IMG/VR virus record: IMGVR_UViG_3300027844_002282
Length of the DNA: 64,000 nt
Strand: one strand, 5' to 3'
Origin: a virus
Part shown: one piece after another, positions 14,567-17,598 of the stretch
Layout: the number at the start of each line of letters is the position of its first letter
Numbering within the stretch: position 1 is the first letter of the stretch
The notes under the pieces: model-generated
What the model saw: the letters and a program-made list of their open reading frames with translations, nothing else
The model's database searches: none
What the model was told of the DNA's origin: nothing
Made by a program: the position numbers and the translations under genes

Positions 14567-14914
14567 ATGGCAACCAAAGCCACGAATTCCAGGAAAAAGA
14601 CTCCAACAAAATCGCGTACTCCAGCCAAGAAGCCCGCCGTGTCTGTAAAAGAAGACCCCAAGGTAAAAAAGACTGGTGTGTTTAGAGAGTCAAGGGTGAT
14701 TATTTCATTTTGCATCGTTGCAATCATGTTTATTATCATTGTTTTGCAAGGCAAAGAAATCAGTGGTATAAAAAACTCCACTGATATTAATAGAACGCTA
14801 ATTGCCCAAACGGATGACAAAGTCGCCGCAAACGTTAGTAAAATCCTAACGATATCAAGTGATATCGAGAAATTAAAGAAAAGATCCGCCTTCGCGGTAA
14901 AAAAAAAAGAGTGA
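14567..14914 (+). CDS. single-pass membrane protein with coiled-coil; may continue past an A-run frameshift
   Basis: basic N-terminus, one TM helix (VIISFCIVAIMFIIIVL), AGG-N19-GAA motif upstream. Confidence 0.6.
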   Translation: MATKATNSRKKTPTKSRTPAKKPAVSVKEDPKVKKTGVFRESRVIISFCIVAIMFIIIVLQGKEISGIKNSTDINRTLIAQTDDKVAANVSKILTISSDIEKLKKRSAFAVKKKE

Positions 14915-15159
14915 GGTAGTCACATCAGAATCTGTCCCAATACCGACCATAGACCCCAATGTGACATTAAAGGTATTCGAAGATGTCGAAAGCCTCGAAG
15001 AGTTCACGCTTGATGTCACGACAGTGGAGCCCGCCCCTCCGGTAGAGACATGGTACGTAGAAGATAAGCCAGCCCTACTGAAGCCACGTTCGTGGAGGTG
15101 TAAAGCCCCATGGAAATGGAAGATTTGGTAGAAAAGATGTAGAATCTTTGTGTAAGAGC

Positions 15160-15188
15160 TTGACATTGCCCTTTTGAGAGGCTATGTT
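15160..15188 (+). promoter_or_regulatory. sigma70-like promoter upstream of the ncRNA/tmRNA unit
   Basis: TTGACA-17 nt-TATGTT. Confidence 0.6.
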
Positions 15189-15349
15189 GTATCTCAGTTT
15201 GAAAATAGAATAGTTTGTGGTTTCCAGTTTCCGTAAAAACTGGTGGTGGAGGGTATAGCGATTCAAACCGTTTTTGCCCCTGGCTACAAGGAGTCGTTTT
15301 ATTGGGTTAAGCACCTTGTCAATGCTAACCCAGATTTTCCACATTTTGT

Positions 15350-16054
15350 GGGGACGTAACAGGTATTCGACTAGAATGGTAGAATATCAATTGCATGTCG
15401 AGGATGACTGTTGGCCTCGTTAAACATCAGTTAAAAAACATAAAAGCGAACAACGAAGAAATCCTTCAGTTCCCTGGTCTTGATGCAGGTTTTGCAGCAC
15501 CAGTAGAGGCTCCGGCCTTTGCAATCGCTGCCTAATTAGTTGACAGACTAACTCGGCCTTAATTGAGCCGAGCGCTTAACGGATGGACCCTTGATAAATC
15601 CGTAAGCGACAAAAATCGAGGAAAGCGCTTGATACTGACTCACCTGAGTTGAGAGTGAAAGTTTTAGGTGATCGTCATACTGCCAGTTGGTGTTAATACC
15701 TGCGAATGTAATACGGCACAGACTAAAAGATAGCAAAATTAACTATACATGTAGACGTTGATATAAAGTTGTTTTAGGACGCGGGTTCGATCAAATTGGT
15801 CGCCATGAGAAGTGATTCTCATTGGAAACTGAGAGCTTTCACGGTGAAAGCTAAGTTGAGTAATCAATATGCCAACGCCGTATGGTGAATCTGAAAAGAG
15901 GAAGCCATCTAGAGACTTATAGAGTCCTAAGGTATTTATACTATGGATCACTAGGATGGGTAAAACCATAACACGCTCTCCCCTGACTTGTCAGGTGAAG
16001 AAATAGTCCTTGCCAGGTGAAAGTCTGGGTGTACAAGCCCCGCCGTCTCCACCA
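15350..16054 (+). ncRNA. ssrA: tmRNA, intron-containing (exons 15350-15791 and 16038-16054)
   Basis: GGGGACG/CGTCTCC-A-CCA acceptor with G3:U70, GGTATTCGAC, tag ORF 15446-15535 (ANNEEILQFPGLDAGFAAPVEAPAFAIAA*); spliced T-arm GCGGG-TTCGATC-CCCGC. Confidence 0.93.
15792..16037 (+). mobile_element. group I intron in the tmRNA T-loop (246 nt, no ORF)
   Basis: 5' exon ends in U pairing with G in P1 (CGAUC/GGUCG); terminal G; P3 GAGAGC/GCTCTC; core elements AGAGACTTAT (15911) and GAAGAAATAGTCC (15997); P8 CCTGAC..TCAGG. Confidence 0.9.
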
Positions 16055-16059
16055 ATATG

Positions 16060-16097
16060 AAAAAGGCTGAGTGCCTATAAAGCACTCAGTCTTTTTT
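16060..16097 (+). terminator. intrinsic terminator after the tmRNA
   Basis: GGCTGAGTGC-CTATAAA-GCACTCAGTC hairpin followed by T6. Confidence 0.8.
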
Positions 16098-16171
16098 GTT
16101 TTCGAAGGGAATTGTTTTAATAAGAAGGCCCTTCGCCTCCACCTGTAGTATAATATGTTAGAGGTGATAAG

Positions 16172-16747
16172 ATGGCAAAAGAGAAAATAAAATGCGCTAA
16201 CCCAGCATGTGAAAAAATTTTTGAAAAAGAAAGGAAAGAAATAAATAGAAGCGAGAGACTTGGGAGGCTTCAATATTGTTGCTCTTCTTGTTATGGGAAC
16301 CACAGGGGGAAGAACGCCTTGAAGTTCGTGTCGGAAGAAAATATTAAAAGGAATCAAATAAATATTAAAAACTATTGTGGAAACAATAGAGATGGGTTTA
16401 CAAGGTTTAGATATTTTCTAAAAAATTATAGAACAAGGGGCAAAGAAAGGCCTCAGAAAAAAGGGGATATAGACCTGGAATTCTTAAAATCACTATGGGA
16501 GTCTCAGAAAGGCATTTGCCCTATTACTGGATGGAATATGGTTTTGCCAAACTCTATTGCCGGATGGGAAGACAAAGGTATGATGAGAGCGAGTCTTGAT
16601 AGAATCAACTCTAATTTTGGGTACTTTAAAAATAACGTCAGATTCGTTTGTTTTATTGCAAACATTGCCAAAAACAATTTTTCAGATAATGATTTATTAA
16701 AATTTTGCGAGGCCGCGACAAAATTTAACAAAAAGTCAGATTTATAA
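16172..16747 (+). CDS. free-standing HNH-type (His-Me finger) endonuclease, probable homing endonuclease
   Basis: N-terminal CANPAC..YCCSSC Zn module; QKGICPITG ... SLDRINSNFGYFKNNVRFVC...NIAK motif. Confidence 0.75.
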   Translation: MAKEKIKCANPACEKIFEKERKEINRSERLGRLQYCCSSCYGNHRGKNALKFVSEENIKRNQINIKNYCGNNRDGFTRFRYFLKNYRTRGKERPQKKGDIDLEFLKSLWESQKGICPITGWNMVLPNSIAGWEDKGMMRASLDRINSNFGYFKNNVRFVCFIANIAKNNFSDNDLLKFCEAATKFNKKSDL

Positions 16748-16803
16748 ATGTCTATCTTTTTGTTTCCACAATGTATAATCATATCAAATCTAAGGAGAGA
16801 CCT

Positions 16804-17598
16804 ATGCTATTAAGTAAAGATGGAAAGAGAAATATTATAGACAGAGTCACTGTTACTGGTGCAGATGACAATACAGACATTGACAATATGGTAGAGGTCT
16901 ACGATGAATACCCCTTTGTTGAATGGGGTATTTTGCTATCACGCGAACAAATTGATGGAAACAGATTCCCCAGCTTTGATTGGATGAGAGATCTTTATAA
17001 CATTTCTTCGCAAGAAGACCGATTCTTTAACATCGGTGGGTGGACTTGTAAAAAGCAATTCCCCCTGTCTGGGCACATTTGCGGAAGCTGGGTTGACCAG
17101 ATCCAAAAAGTTGGGTGGAAAAATTTCTTCAACTCCTTAGATAGAAATATGAAAAATATATTTGCGATGTTTTCAAGGCTCCAAATAAATCTTCATGGGG
17201 AAACCCCAAAAGTTACGGACGAGTTCTACAATGGGTTTTACGACCCGTCATTTGTAGGGAAACAAATAATCATACAAGAGAGCGGTGAAAGTAAAGACAT
17301 TGTTGAAAGGCTTAGGCTTCGGGGAGTTAACGCGACATTGCTATTTGATAACTCCCACGGTGCCGGAGTGTTACCTGGTGGTTGGCCAGACAGGAATGTT
17401 CCAGGATATATTGGATATGCTGGTGGCCTCGGACCAAAAAATGTCGCAGAAGAAATTCCAAAAATAGAAAAGTCATCGGGCGATGAGAAAATATGGATTG
17501 ATGCTGAAACAAAGGTAAGGGATGGCGTTGGAGATCTTGACATGAATTTGACAAGGGAATTATTAAAGAAATCAGAACCGTTTATTATAGGACGATAA
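16804..17598 (+). CDS. TIM-barrel protein, phosphoribosylanthranilate-isomerase-like
   Basis: TVTGAD, QINLHG, LFDNSHGAG, GYAGGLGPKNV and WIDAE; AGGAG RBS. Confidence 0.7.
   Translation: MLLSKDGKRNIIDRVTVTGADDNTDIDNMVEVYDEYPFVEWGILLSREQIDGNRFPSFDWMRDLYNISSQEDRFFNIGGWTCKKQFPLSGHICGSWVDQIQKVGWKNFFNSLDRNMKNIFAMFSRLQINLHGETPKVTDEFYNGFYDPSFVGKQIIIQESGESKDIVERLRLRGVNATLLFDNSHGAGVLPGGWPDRNVPGYIGYAGGLGPKNVAEEIPKIEKSSGDEKIWIDAETKVRDGVGDLDMNLTRELLKKSEPFIIGR

What the first reader, a model, noticed from the sequence alone, without database searches (positions are those of the whole stretch)
16121..16747. Free-standing HNH endonuclease next to an ORF-less intron: collaborative homing candidate
Seen: the endonuclease gene starts 118 nt after the tmRNA CCA, beyond the terminator, with its own AGG-N19-GTATAAT motif. 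The spacer of that motif (GCCCTTCGCCTCCACC) loosely resembles the tmRNA 3' end (GCCCCGCCGTCTCCACC). Knowledge: in collaborative homing, a free-standing phage endonuclease cuts intron-less alleles of a neighbouring gene while the intron protects its own allele. Inference: this nuclease targets the intact ssrA T-arm of competing phages, and possibly the host ssrA; the look-alike may be an insertion scar.
Basis: inference. Interest (0 to 1): 0.7.

Follow-up and report, generated by a model that had tools for sequence, protein, structure and literature searches.

The report
Phage tmRNA-linked homing endonuclease gene
This phage gene encodes a selfish DNA-cutting enzyme from a family that sits almost always within about 100 bases of the 3' end of phage tmRNA (ribosome-rescue RNA) genes, nearly all without an intron, so the intron next door is more likely a fellow traveller than a required partner.

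Summary
An intact 191-aa ORF (16172-16747) starts 118 nt after the CCA of a tmRNA gene whose T-loop is split by a 246-nt ORF-less group I intron. A terminator, a TATAAT box and a 12/15 look-alike of the tmRNA 3' end lie between them.

The protein is not a classic HNH. It has an N-terminal zinc ribbon and a PacI-type His-Me finger, with the catalytic His replaced (invariant D-R...G-Y...N...N).

Of its 80 best IMG/VR relatives, 71 lie beside a tmRNA gene and none of those has an intron. Most follow the 3' end, some are convergent on it, and some sit just before a permuted tmRNA. Closely related phages differ in having the gene. Some cassettes are flanked by 12-20-nt direct repeats of the tmRNA 3' end that start in the T-loop.

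So this is a free-standing homing endonuclease family aimed at tmRNA genes. Passive hitchhiking by the intron, and protection by it, remain possible but untested.

The look-alike is a conserved 5' arm of a hairpin that hides the nuclease's ribosome-binding site, not a local scar.

The scan has noted this family before on other DNA. I found no paper describing it.

The parts
15160..15188 (+). Sigma-70-like promoter (TTGACA-17-TATGTT) upstream of the tmRNA, about 160 nt before its 5' end
   Evidence: Consensus scan, 10 of 12 matches. Context only.
15350..15791 (+). tmRNA exon 1: 5' acceptor strand, tag reading frame, pseudoknots, T-stem 5' strand and T-loop nucleotides 1-6 (ends UUCGAU)
   Evidence: RF00023, 91.9 bits. 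ARAGORN calls a 459-nt tmRNA after in-silico splicing.
15792..16037 (+). ORF-less group I intron, 246 nt, at T-loop position 7. It follows U15791 and ends in G16037.
   Evidence: Removing it restores a canonical T-arm and acceptor. Weak RF00028 hit, 22.9 bits, local E 0.0023. No + strand ORF of 40 aa or more. Position 7 is the main known tmRNA intron site (PMC11915505).
16038..16054 (+). tmRNA exon 2: last T-loop nucleotide, T-stem 3' strand, acceptor 3' strand, discriminator A and an encoded CCA
   Evidence: The spliced 30-mer is identical to 43 intron-less ssrA 3' ends in metagenomes.
16057..16099 (+). Intrinsic terminator hairpin (18-bp stem) with a U tract, directly after the tmRNA
   Evidence: RNA fold of 16055-16185: -47.7 kcal/mol, z -5.8. 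The terminator scan flags the same stem.
16129..16143 (+). Look-alike of the tmRNA 3' end (12 of 15). Its 3' part is the 5' arm of the hairpin that hides the ribosome-binding site.
   Evidence: 0.28 such matches expected per window. Searches show an equivalent element across the family.
16135..16176 (+). Predicted hairpin pairing 16135-16144 with the Shine-Dalgarno sequence (16162-16166) and the start-codon region (16171-16176). The -10 box lies inside the loop.
   Evidence: The layout matches that described for I-TevI, segB and mobE (PMC2988022).
16149..16154 (+). TATAAT -10 box of the nuclease's own promoter. A transcript started about 7 nt downstream would lack the inhibitory 5' arm.
   Evidence: Relatives carry TGTGTATAAT-type boxes at the same relative place. 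Promoter activity is inferred, not shown.
16172..16747 (+). Free-standing homing-endonuclease gene, 191 aa. Zinc ribbon (residues 1-50; Cys 8, 13, 36/37, 40), flexible linker (about 51-75) and a PacI-like His-Me finger nuclease domain (about 76-191; D143, R144, Y151, N155, N164).
   Evidence: ORF; PHROG 3322, 5.9e-19; invariant residues; PacI profile hit, E 0.011; MYM zinc finger, E 0.0045; AF2 model, pLDDT 86.5; PacI is the top structural match, Z 6.7, rmsd 6.4 A, 112 residues aligned.

Best explanation
The ORF encodes a free-standing homing endonuclease. It has a zinc-ribbon DNA-binding module and a PacI-type His-Me finger nuclease, in which a conserved tyrosine would stand in for the missing catalytic histidine. 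It belongs to a phage family specialised on tmRNA genes.

Inferred mechanism: in a mixed infection the enzyme recognises the conserved last 20-30 bp of a tmRNA gene (T-loop to CCA) in a genome that lacks the cassette and cuts there. Break repair then copies the nuclease gene, with its own 5' UTR, in next to the tmRNA 3' end.

Expression appears to be held down as in T4 homing endonuclease genes. Read-through RNA from the tmRNA must first pass a terminator. It then folds a hairpin in which the look-alike (16135-16144) pairs with the Shine-Dalgarno sequence and start codon. A TATAAT box inside that hairpin would give a shorter transcript with a free ribosome-binding site.

The group I intron in the T-loop is a second, separate mobile element at the known tmRNA intron site. 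It lies 17 nt from the gene's end and about 135 nt upstream of the nuclease gene's start, so any nuclease-triggered gene conversion would probably carry it along. By splitting the T-arm DNA it may also protect this allele. The nuclease family does not depend on it.

Shown here: family membership, tmRNA linkage, absence of introns in relatives, presence/absence among close relatives, direct repeats, and predicted hairpins. Inferred: cleavage, target site, homing, regulation, and intron hitchhiking.
For: 1. Linkage. Of the 80 best IMG/VR relatives (35-50% identity), 48 have an ARAGORN tmRNA ending 8-218 nt upstream on the same strand. Rfam adds 9 more upstream, 2 convergent and 6 with a permuted tmRNA starting at the nuclease's stop. 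ARAGORN finds 3 more convergent cases, and blastn adds 3 more permuted cases. The total is 71 of 80. The four homologues looked up in other assemblies give the same picture in unrelated gene neighbourhoods. In every layout the nuclease is close to the T-arm and acceptor 3' part of the gene.

2. No intron. ARAGORN calls these tmRNAs intact, and no RF00028 hit reached threshold in the 37 relative loci scanned with Rfam (8 fetched from other assemblies, and 29 IMG/VR loci).

3. Mobility. L103 and L109 carry the gene. L108, about 80-86% identical in DNA, carries instead a different 128-aa HNH ORF 5 nt after the same tmRNA. Homology breaks 4 nt after the tmRNA end. L102 has the same tmRNA 3' 29-mer and no nuclease.

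4. Direct repeats of the tmRNA 3' end flank the cassette. These are 12 nt in L021, at least 16 nt starting in the T-loop in L031, L032 and L033, and 20 nt in L160. Copies after the nuclease match their own tmRNA better than other loci's tmRNAs (permutation p = 0.006).

5. Enzyme. D143, R144, Y151 and N155 are invariant. The profile aligns D-R, G-Y and N with PacI, and PacI is the top structural match. PacI lacks the catalytic His and uses a Tyr (PMC5714182).

6. Regulation. The Shine-Dalgarno region pairs with an upstream arm in 24 of 27 distinct loci, median z -3.4. The window's own fold agrees. T4 precedents are in PMC2988022.

7. The subfamily is largely phage-borne: 290 relatives in IMG/VR against 4 in 185,579 species genomes. 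Two of those 4 follow an ssrA gene.
Against: No cleavage, target site or homing event has been shown for any member.

In this phage's own lineage there is no nuclease-minus or intron-minus allele to compare.

Nuclease-plus relatives keep intact, mostly canonical T-arms. How they avoid cutting themselves is unexplained, which weakens the claim that the T-arm alone is the target.

Only about 5 lineages keep a flanking direct repeat, and the window does not (7 of 14 matches, chance level).

Arg replaces the catalytic His. Activity therefore rests on analogy with PacI, at low sequence similarity (E 0.011) and modest structural similarity (Z 6.7, rmsd 6.4 A).

Nine of the 80 relatives showed no adjacent tmRNA gene: L063 has one 918 nt upstream, L065 a 69-nt tmRNA-like element, L071 and L072 adjacent tRNAs, L069 starts at its contig end, and L042, L047, L073 and L078 showed none. 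The crAss-like homologues are not at tmRNA genes.
Confidence: 0.68

Rival explanations
1. True collaborative homing. The nuclease cuts the intron-less T-loop at or near position 7, the intron is what makes this phage's own allele immune, and intron, 3' exon and nuclease gene move as one co-adapted unit.
For: The ORF-less intron and a free-standing nuclease gene lie about 135 nt apart. In L031-L033 and L160 the cassette's repeat boundary falls in the T-loop, the same few nucleotides that introns use (PMC11915505). This puts the likely break site at the intron site. Precedents exist: MobE with the defunct I-TevIII intron (PMC2790892) and the reviews listed. This allele encodes CCA and an otherwise perfect target-like 30-mer once spliced, so here the intron is the only visible disruption. 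Earlier scan notes report other phages with both elements (not verified by me).
Against: None of the 71 tmRNA-adjacent relatives has an intron, so the family spreads and protects itself without one. The intron gave no relatives in IMG/VR or in deposited phage genomes. Co-occurrence therefore cannot be shown, and no intron-minus allele of this phage exists in the data.
Confidence: 0.22
2. The protein is not a selfish element but a working partner of the phage tmRNA. It might process or protect the tmRNA transcript, or act as a DNA-binding regulator of the locus that has lost nuclease activity.
For: The gene order with tmRNA is very consistent (71 of 80). The catalytic His is missing. A sequence resembling the tmRNA 3' end overlaps its own promoter. 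That could be a binding site; I-TevI shows that a homing endonuclease can also act as a repressor.
Against: Orientation varies (same strand, convergent, or upstream of permuted genes), so co-transcription is not conserved. Close relatives lack the gene or carry an unrelated HNH in its place. Flanking direct repeats are typical of insertion. The PacI-type catalytic residues are invariant. More distant homologues sit at a group I intron and at other non-coding RNAs in crAss-like phages.
Confidence: 0.06
3. The nuclease is mainly an anti-host weapon. It cuts the host chromosome's ssrA gene to disable host trans-translation, while the phage's own intron-split copy is spared. This is compatible with the homing explanations rather than exclusive of them.
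For: The spliced T-arm and acceptor 30-mer of the phage tmRNA is identical to intron-less ssrA 3' ends on 43 marine and sediment metagenome contigs with ANDENYALAA-type tags. Two genome-collection hits of the family follow tmRNA genes of MAGs, one on a 1.25-Mb Chloroflexia contig.
Against: None of the 43 contigs carries the nuclease or any sign of invasion. The host of this phage is unknown. Intron-less relatives would face the same self-targeting problem. Nothing links the family to host shut-off.
Confidence: 0.04

Closest known systems
Free-standing homing endonucleases of T4-like phages (SegB in the tRNA gene cluster; MobE between nrdA and nrdB)
   Same: A small nuclease gene sits in an intergenic spot next to a conserved gene. 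It is sporadically present among related phages. It has its own promoter placed inside a hairpin that sequesters the ribosome-binding site (PMC2988022).
   Different: The catalytic domain is PacI-type (Tyr in place of His) with an N-terminal zinc ribbon, not GIY-YIG or classic HNH. The associated gene is tmRNA. Some cassettes are flanked by direct repeats of the gene's 3' end. No activity has been shown.
Collaborative or trans homing: MobE with the I-TevIII-less nrdB intron (PMC2790892); F-CphI with the cyanophage psbA intron (recalled from memory, not read here)
   Same: An ORF-less group I intron in a conserved gene has a free-standing endonuclease gene right beside it. Co-conversion of the intron is plausible from distance alone.
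   Different: In those systems the pairing defines the system and cleavage at the intron site was shown. Here all 71 tmRNA-adjacent relatives lack an intron, and neither cleavage nor immunity has been tested.
PacI restriction endonuclease (PDB 3ldy, 3m7k); His-Me finger group 20 (PMC5714182)
   Same: A beta-beta-alpha-metal fold with D-R in place of D-H and a conserved G-Y tyrosine. PacI is the best profile hit and the best structural hit. Group 20 is described as mainly viral.
   Different: PacI is a bacterial rare-cutting restriction enzyme with two zinc motifs. This protein has a separate N-terminal zinc ribbon and linker and sits in a mobile-element context. Similarity is weak (E 0.011; Z 6.7, rmsd 6.4 A).
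Intron-form tmRNA genes (group I intron in the T-psi-C loop; tmRNA database 2025, PMC11915505)
   Same: The intron is at T-loop position 7, follows a U and ends in G. Most such introns lack an ORF.
   Different: The catalogued cases are bacterial, and the 23 endonuclease genes found in them are LAGLIDADG genes inside the intron. This one is in a phage, with a PacI-like nuclease gene outside the gene.
I-TevI autorepression through an operator that mimics its homing site (PMC2988022)
   Same: A sequence resembling the presumed target (12 of 15 here; 15 of 20 for I-TevI) overlaps the nuclease's own promoter.
   Different: Binding is untested. Much of the resemblance could arise simply because the anti-Shine-Dalgarno sequence CCUCC is also the end of the tmRNA acceptor strand.

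Membership tests
Free-standing homing endonuclease gene (T4 seg/mob type) | Encodes a nuclease domain with its catalytic residues intact | tested here: met
   PacI-type D143, R144, Y151 and N155 are invariant in 22 homologues. The fold is HNH-like.
Free-standing homing endonuclease gene (T4 seg/mob type) | Presence/absence polymorphism among closely related genomes at the same site | tested here: met
   Met for the family: L103 and L109 carry the gene; L108 (80-86% DNA identity) and L102 do not. It could not be tested in the window's own lineage, which is identical in all contigs.
Free-standing homing endonuclease gene (T4 seg/mob type) | Cleaves the endonuclease-lacking allele near the insertion site and is then copied in | not testable with these tools
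   Needs enzyme assays and phage crosses.
Free-standing homing endonuclease gene (T4 seg/mob type) | Tight expression control (RBS-sequestering hairpin with an internal promoter) | tested here: met
   In silico only. The Shine-Dalgarno region is paired in 24 of 27 loci, including the window. -10 boxes lie in the loops.
Collaborative homing pair (ORF-less intron plus neighbouring free-standing endonuclease) | An ORF-less group I intron in a conserved gene with an adjacent free-standing endonuclease gene | tested here: met
Collaborative homing pair (ORF-less intron plus neighbouring free-standing endonuclease) | Intron and endonuclease co-occur across relatives | tested here: not met
   None of the 71 tmRNA-adjacent relatives has an intron.
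Collaborative homing pair (ORF-less intron plus neighbouring free-standing endonuclease) | The endonuclease cuts the intron-less allele at the intron insertion site, and the intron-plus allele is immune | not testable with these tools
   There is only indirect positional evidence: repeat boundaries in the T-loop in L031-L033 and L160.
PacI-like His-Me finger nucleases (group 20 of PMC5714182) | A beta-beta-alpha-metal fold most similar to PacI | tested here: met
   PacI 3m7k is the top of 48,161 chains (Z 6.7, rmsd 6.4 A, 112 residues aligned). The profile hit to 3ldy has E 0.011. The similarity is modest.
PacI-like His-Me finger nucleases (group 20 of PMC5714182) | Catalytic His absent and a conserved Tyr in the omega loop | tested here: met
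   S-L-D-R-I and G-Y are invariant and align with PacI's D-R and G-Y. The role of the Tyr is taken from PMC5714182.
Pfam HNH families (PF01844 and relatives) | Significant match to a curated HNH model | tested here: not met
   No Pfam family matches at E up to 0.1.
Intron-form tmRNA gene | Removing the insert restores a canonical tmRNA; the insert follows a U, ends in G and lies in the T-loop | tested here: met
   The site is position 7 as defined in PMC11915505.
Intron-form tmRNA gene | The insert has a group I catalytic core | tested here: inconclusive
   RF00028 scores 22.9 bits against a gathering score of 50, with local E 0.0023. The dedicated tmRNA_intron model is not in Rfam.

The most novel reading that the evidence does not exclude
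Intron, spare 3' exon, terminator and nuclease gene form one composite mobile unit aimed at the T-loop of any tmRNA gene. The targets would include the host's ssrA, whose last 30 bp are identical to the phage's spliced gene. The phage would then break or overwrite competing and host ribosome-rescue genes while its own intron-split copy stays uncuttable. The promoter-overlapping look-alike would serve as an operator through which the enzyme represses itself.
Probability: 0.1. Interest if true: 0.85.

Novelty: new variant of a known kind. Interest (0 to 1): 0.58.

Why it matters
Homing endonucleases are known for protein-coding genes, rRNA, tRNA clusters and introns. I could not find a published family that specialises on the tmRNA gene, nor one that uses the unusual PacI-type tyrosine active site.

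Such a family would help explain how tmRNA genes and their neighbourhoods are shuffled between unrelated large phages. It would explain why the 3' end of phage tmRNA genes collects several kinds of nuclease gene, and why introns, spare gene ends and permuted forms cluster at the T-arm.

It would also offer a compact, modular and probably long-site DNA enzyme for study.

For this window, it turns an attractive story (intron and nuclease as obligate partners) into a testable and more modest one: neighbours sharing one hot spot.

Tried and rejected
1. Loss of the encoded CCA as the way nuclease-plus alleles escape cutting. Among distinct loci about 14 encode CCA and about 21 do not, so there is no rule.

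2. The look-alike as a copy of the neighbouring tmRNA's own end. The match to the locus's own tmRNA averages 4.8 of 10, against 4.5 for other loci's tmRNAs (permutation p = 0.14).

3. A second ghost of the tmRNA end after the nuclease's stop codon in the window (TTTGTTTCCACAATG). It matches 7 of 14, which is chance level.

4. CCAC followed by TATAAT as a general promoter motif of this phage. Only the two sites flanking the nuclease, and one other of 38 + strand TATAAT boxes, show it. No conclusion was drawn.

5. Relatives of the intron. There was no DNA match in deposited phage genomes. A 16-nt P7 core pattern hit 44 IMG/VR loci, but none resembles this intron by blastn.

6. Alleles of this phage without the intron or the nuclease. 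Look-ups by the nuclease and by the upstream 115-aa protein each read 24 contigs, all with the same layout. Eight fetched contigs are 100% identical. The downstream protein has no relative above 45% identity and none in IMG/VR.

7. No whole genome is held for this window.

8. Foldseek against the PDB gave no significant match (best E 0.12), although the weak hits are mostly HNH nucleases.

9. The full 22-sequence alignment was too variable for the genome-collection scan. A 9-sequence subset worked.

10. No complex prediction was run, because the report makes no claim that needs one.
Full report
**What is at the locus.** The window looks like part of a large marine phage genome. It carries tRNA genes and neighbouring genes for an APS kinase and a PfkB-type kinase.

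Rfam finds a tmRNA at 15360-15793 (91.9 bits). Reading the sequence extends it to 15350-16054. The 5' strand GGGGACG pairs with CGUCUCC (16044-16050), including a G3-U pair, and ACCA follows. ARAGORN misses the gene as it stands. After in-silico removal of 15792-16037 it calls a 459-nt tmRNA with tag end APAFAIAA.

The insert follows U15791, ends in G16037, has no + strand ORF and gives a weak group I hit (22.9 bits). It lies between T-loop nucleotides 6 and 7. That is 'position 7', the main site of the 883 known intron-form tmRNA genes (PMC11915505).

Downstream lie, in order:
- a strong terminator hairpin at 16057-16099;
- a second hairpin;
- the look-alike at 16129-16143;
- a TATAAT box at 16149-16154;
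- GAGGTG at 16161-16166;
- the ORF at 16172-16747.

**What the protein is.** Pfam finds nothing. PHROGs give 'endonuclease' 3322 (5.9e-19), an HNH family and an endonuclease VII family.

An alignment of 22 homologues shows four N-terminal cysteines and an invariant core: Q112, C116, S-L-D-R-I (141-145), Y151 and N155, with N164 nearly invariant. The usual D-H of HNH enzymes is D-R here.

A profile of the alignment hits the restriction enzyme PacI (E 0.011), aligning D-R, G-Y and the asparagines. It also hits a MYM-type zinc finger for the N-terminus.

The AlphaFold model (pLDDT 86.5) has three parts: a confident zinc ribbon (residues 1-50), a low-confidence linker, and a C-terminal domain. The best match of that domain among 48,161 chains is PacI (Z 6.7, rmsd 6.4 A, 112 residues). 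Several of the next-ranked matches are Cas9 HNH domains, Gme HNH and McrA. Foldseek alone gave only weak hits, mostly HNH nucleases.

According to PMC5714182, PacI lacks the catalytic histidine and a tyrosine in the omega loop takes its place. PacI's group is described there as mainly viral. The protein is therefore best called a PacI-like His-Me finger nuclease with a separate zinc-ribbon module. Modular homing endonucleases have a comparable layout.

**The decisive comparison.** Homologues of 38-44% identity, fetched from other assemblies, sit in quite different gene neighbourhoods. Each nevertheless lies 54-75 nt after an intact, intron-less tmRNA.

A scan of IMG/VR with the alignment found 290 relatives, and the best 80 were fetched. 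Their contexts are:

| Context | Loci |
|---|---|
| ARAGORN tmRNA ending 8-218 nt upstream, same strand (mostly 40-85 nt) | 48 |
| Further upstream tmRNA found by Rfam (five of them cut by a contig end) | 9 |
| tmRNA convergent on the nuclease, the two 3' ends about 20-60 nt apart | 5 |
| Circularly permuted (two-piece) tmRNA whose acceptor piece, with T-arm and CCA, starts just after the nuclease's stop | 9 |
| **Total adjacent to a tmRNA gene** | **71 of 80** |

None of the 71 shows an intron.

The constant feature is closeness to the T-arm and acceptor 3' part of the gene. Strand and transcription order both vary.

More distant homologues in crAss-like phages are not at tmRNA genes. They lie among RAGATH RNAs and a Hatchet ribozyme, and one abuts a group I intron. 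In the species-genome collection the subfamily is nearly absent (4 hits). Two of those hits follow an ssrA gene.

**Evidence that it is mobile.** Ten IMG/VR contigs share one exact 29-nt tmRNA 3' end. Seven carry the nuclease, and an eighth is cut off inside the gene. L102 has none. L108 has a different classic HNH ORF (128 aa) starting 5 nt after the tmRNA.

L108 is 80-86% identical in DNA to the nuclease-bearing L103 and L109 on both sides. Homology breaks 4 nt after the tmRNA end and resumes at the DNA ligase gene. The spot is therefore a hot spot for nuclease genes of more than one family.

In several lineages the cassette is flanked by direct repeats of the tmRNA 3' end:
- 12 nt in L021;
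- at least 16 nt in L031, L032 and L033, where the nuclease's stop codon TAG occupies the place of TCG in the T-loop and, in L032, the downstream copy keeps the CCA that the functional copy lacks;
- 20 nt, from the first T-loop nucleotide to the discriminator, in L160.

Across loci the copy after the nuclease matches its own tmRNA better than other loci's tmRNAs (p = 0.006). This signal comes from those few lineages. The window itself has no such copy (7 of 14 matches).

These repeats place the insertion boundary in or next to the T-loop. They fit a cassette that brings a replacement gene end. Earlier notes of this scan described that layout on other DNA, and I used those notes as leads and tested them only on my own loci.

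**The look-alike.** It is real: 12 of 15 matches, with 0.28 such matches expected per window. It is not particular to this locus, however.

Nearly every relative has a C-rich CTCCA-type element 10-25 nt after the tmRNA end. A TGTGTATAAT-type -10 box follows, and then a GGAG-type Shine-Dalgarno sequence. Folding shows that the element, or the bases just after it, pairs with the Shine-Dalgarno region in 24 of 27 distinct loci (median z -3.4).

In the window, 16135-16144 pairs with 16162-16166 and with the start-codon region. The element is present even where the tmRNA lies downstream of the nuclease (L076). It does not co-vary with the neighbouring tmRNA (p = 0.14). It therefore travels with the nuclease gene.

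T4 uses the same design for I-TevI, I-TevII, I-TevIII, segB and Aeh1 mobE. Long transcripts hide the ribosome-binding site, while a promoter inside the structure gives translatable RNA (PMC2988022). The same review describes operators that mimic the homing site and overlap the endonuclease promoter. That is a possible second role here.

Part of the resemblance to the tmRNA end may be trivial, because the anti-Shine-Dalgarno sequence CCUCC is also the end of the acceptor strand. An origin as an old tmRNA end cannot be excluded; L029 shows three tandem ends.

**What this means for the intron.** Nuclease-plus relatives keep uninterrupted, mostly canonical T-loops. How they avoid self-cleavage is open. 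Loss of the encoded CCA is not the answer, because CCA status is mixed.

Two weaker forms of the idea survive:
- The intron lies 17 nt from the gene's end and about 135 nt upstream of the nuclease gene's start. Repair of a nuclease-made break would probably carry it along.
- If the enzyme reads the T-arm, the intron splits that site.

Neither could be tested. All 24 contigs read in each of two look-ups have the same layout. Eight fetched contigs are 100% identical over 14567-17598. The flanking protein has no relative above 45% identity. The intron has no detectable relatives.

The exact intron-less 30-mer does exist in nature, on 43 metagenome contigs. On the 29 where ARAGORN calls the tmRNA, the tag is ANDENYALAA-like on all but two (gammaproteobacterial type). 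None of the 43 carries the nuclease. This hints at the host group and makes a host target conceivable, nothing more.

**Verdict.** This is an intact member of a phage-borne, tmRNA-linked, PacI-like homing-endonuclease family with T4-style expression control, next to an independent T-loop intron.

The kind of element is known. New relative to the papers I could search are the enzyme family in this role, the tmRNA gene as its home, and the repeat-flanked cassettes. The scan itself has noted the same family several times on other genomes.

My confidence in the homing-endonuclease reading is about 0.7, and in obligate collaborative homing about 0.2.

Noticed in passing
L017 2450-3031, L018 2501-2986, L019 2453-3055 (crAss-like phages cr56_1, scaffold_242, cr6_1): Homologues of the nuclease at 32-39% identity lie on the opposite strand to their neighbours. 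They sit among RAGATH-9, RAGATH-20 and RAGATH-7-assoc RNAs and a Hatchet ribozyme. In L019 the gene's 3' end overlaps a strong group I intron hit on the other strand (96.7 bits). No tmRNA was detected there.
   Followed up: partly
L108 2334-2720; L103 3577-3969: A different 128-aa classic HNH ORF starts 5 nt after the same tmRNA in a phage about 85% identical to nuclease-bearing ones. L103 also carries an endonuclease VII-like 130-aa ORF in the same inserted block. The tmRNA 3' flank collects nuclease genes of several families.
   Followed up: partly
L065 3521-3589: A 69-nt element that matches only the tRNA-like part of the tmRNA model (57.7 bits) lies directly after the nuclease gene. It could be a coding-region-less mini-tmRNA.
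   Followed up: no
L025, L035, L063, L076 (T-arms of nuclease-linked tmRNAs): Some nuclease-adjacent tmRNAs have non-canonical T-loops (GTGCAAG-type, ATCATTC, GGCAGCA). Most keep TTCGANT. There was no control set to show whether these are enriched.
   Followed up: no
L164-L206 (metagenome contigs): The 30 nt of the window's spliced T-arm and acceptor are identical to ssrA 3' ends on these contigs, whose called tags are mostly ANDENYALAA, ANDDNYALAA or ANDNNYAIAA. The tmRNA bodies are unrelated. This may indicate a marine gammaproteobacterial host.
   Followed up: partly
L162 2398-3030 (Chloroflexia MAG, 1.25-Mb contig): A family member follows a chromosomal tmRNA gene, but its zinc-ribbon part is in another reading frame. 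It is probably a decaying copy in a bacterial chromosome.
   Followed up: no
window 15189-15349: About 160 nt lie between the promoter-like site (15160-15188) and the tmRNA 5' end, which is long for a leader. Another first-stage note treats it as a possible structured RNA.
   Followed up: no
L036 1235-1924; L049 6350-6423: ARAGORN calls two tRNA-SeC(tca) genes and one tRNA-Pyl(cta) gene near nuclease-linked tmRNAs in large phage contigs. These would be stop-codon suppressor-type tRNAs.
   Followed up: no
window 16760-16779: The gene after the nuclease has TTTCCACAATGTATAAT in front of it, loosely echoing the CCTCCACCTGTAGTATAAT in front of the nuclease. Only 3 of 38 + strand TATAAT boxes in the window have a CCAC just upstream. 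The meaning is unclear.
   Followed up: partly
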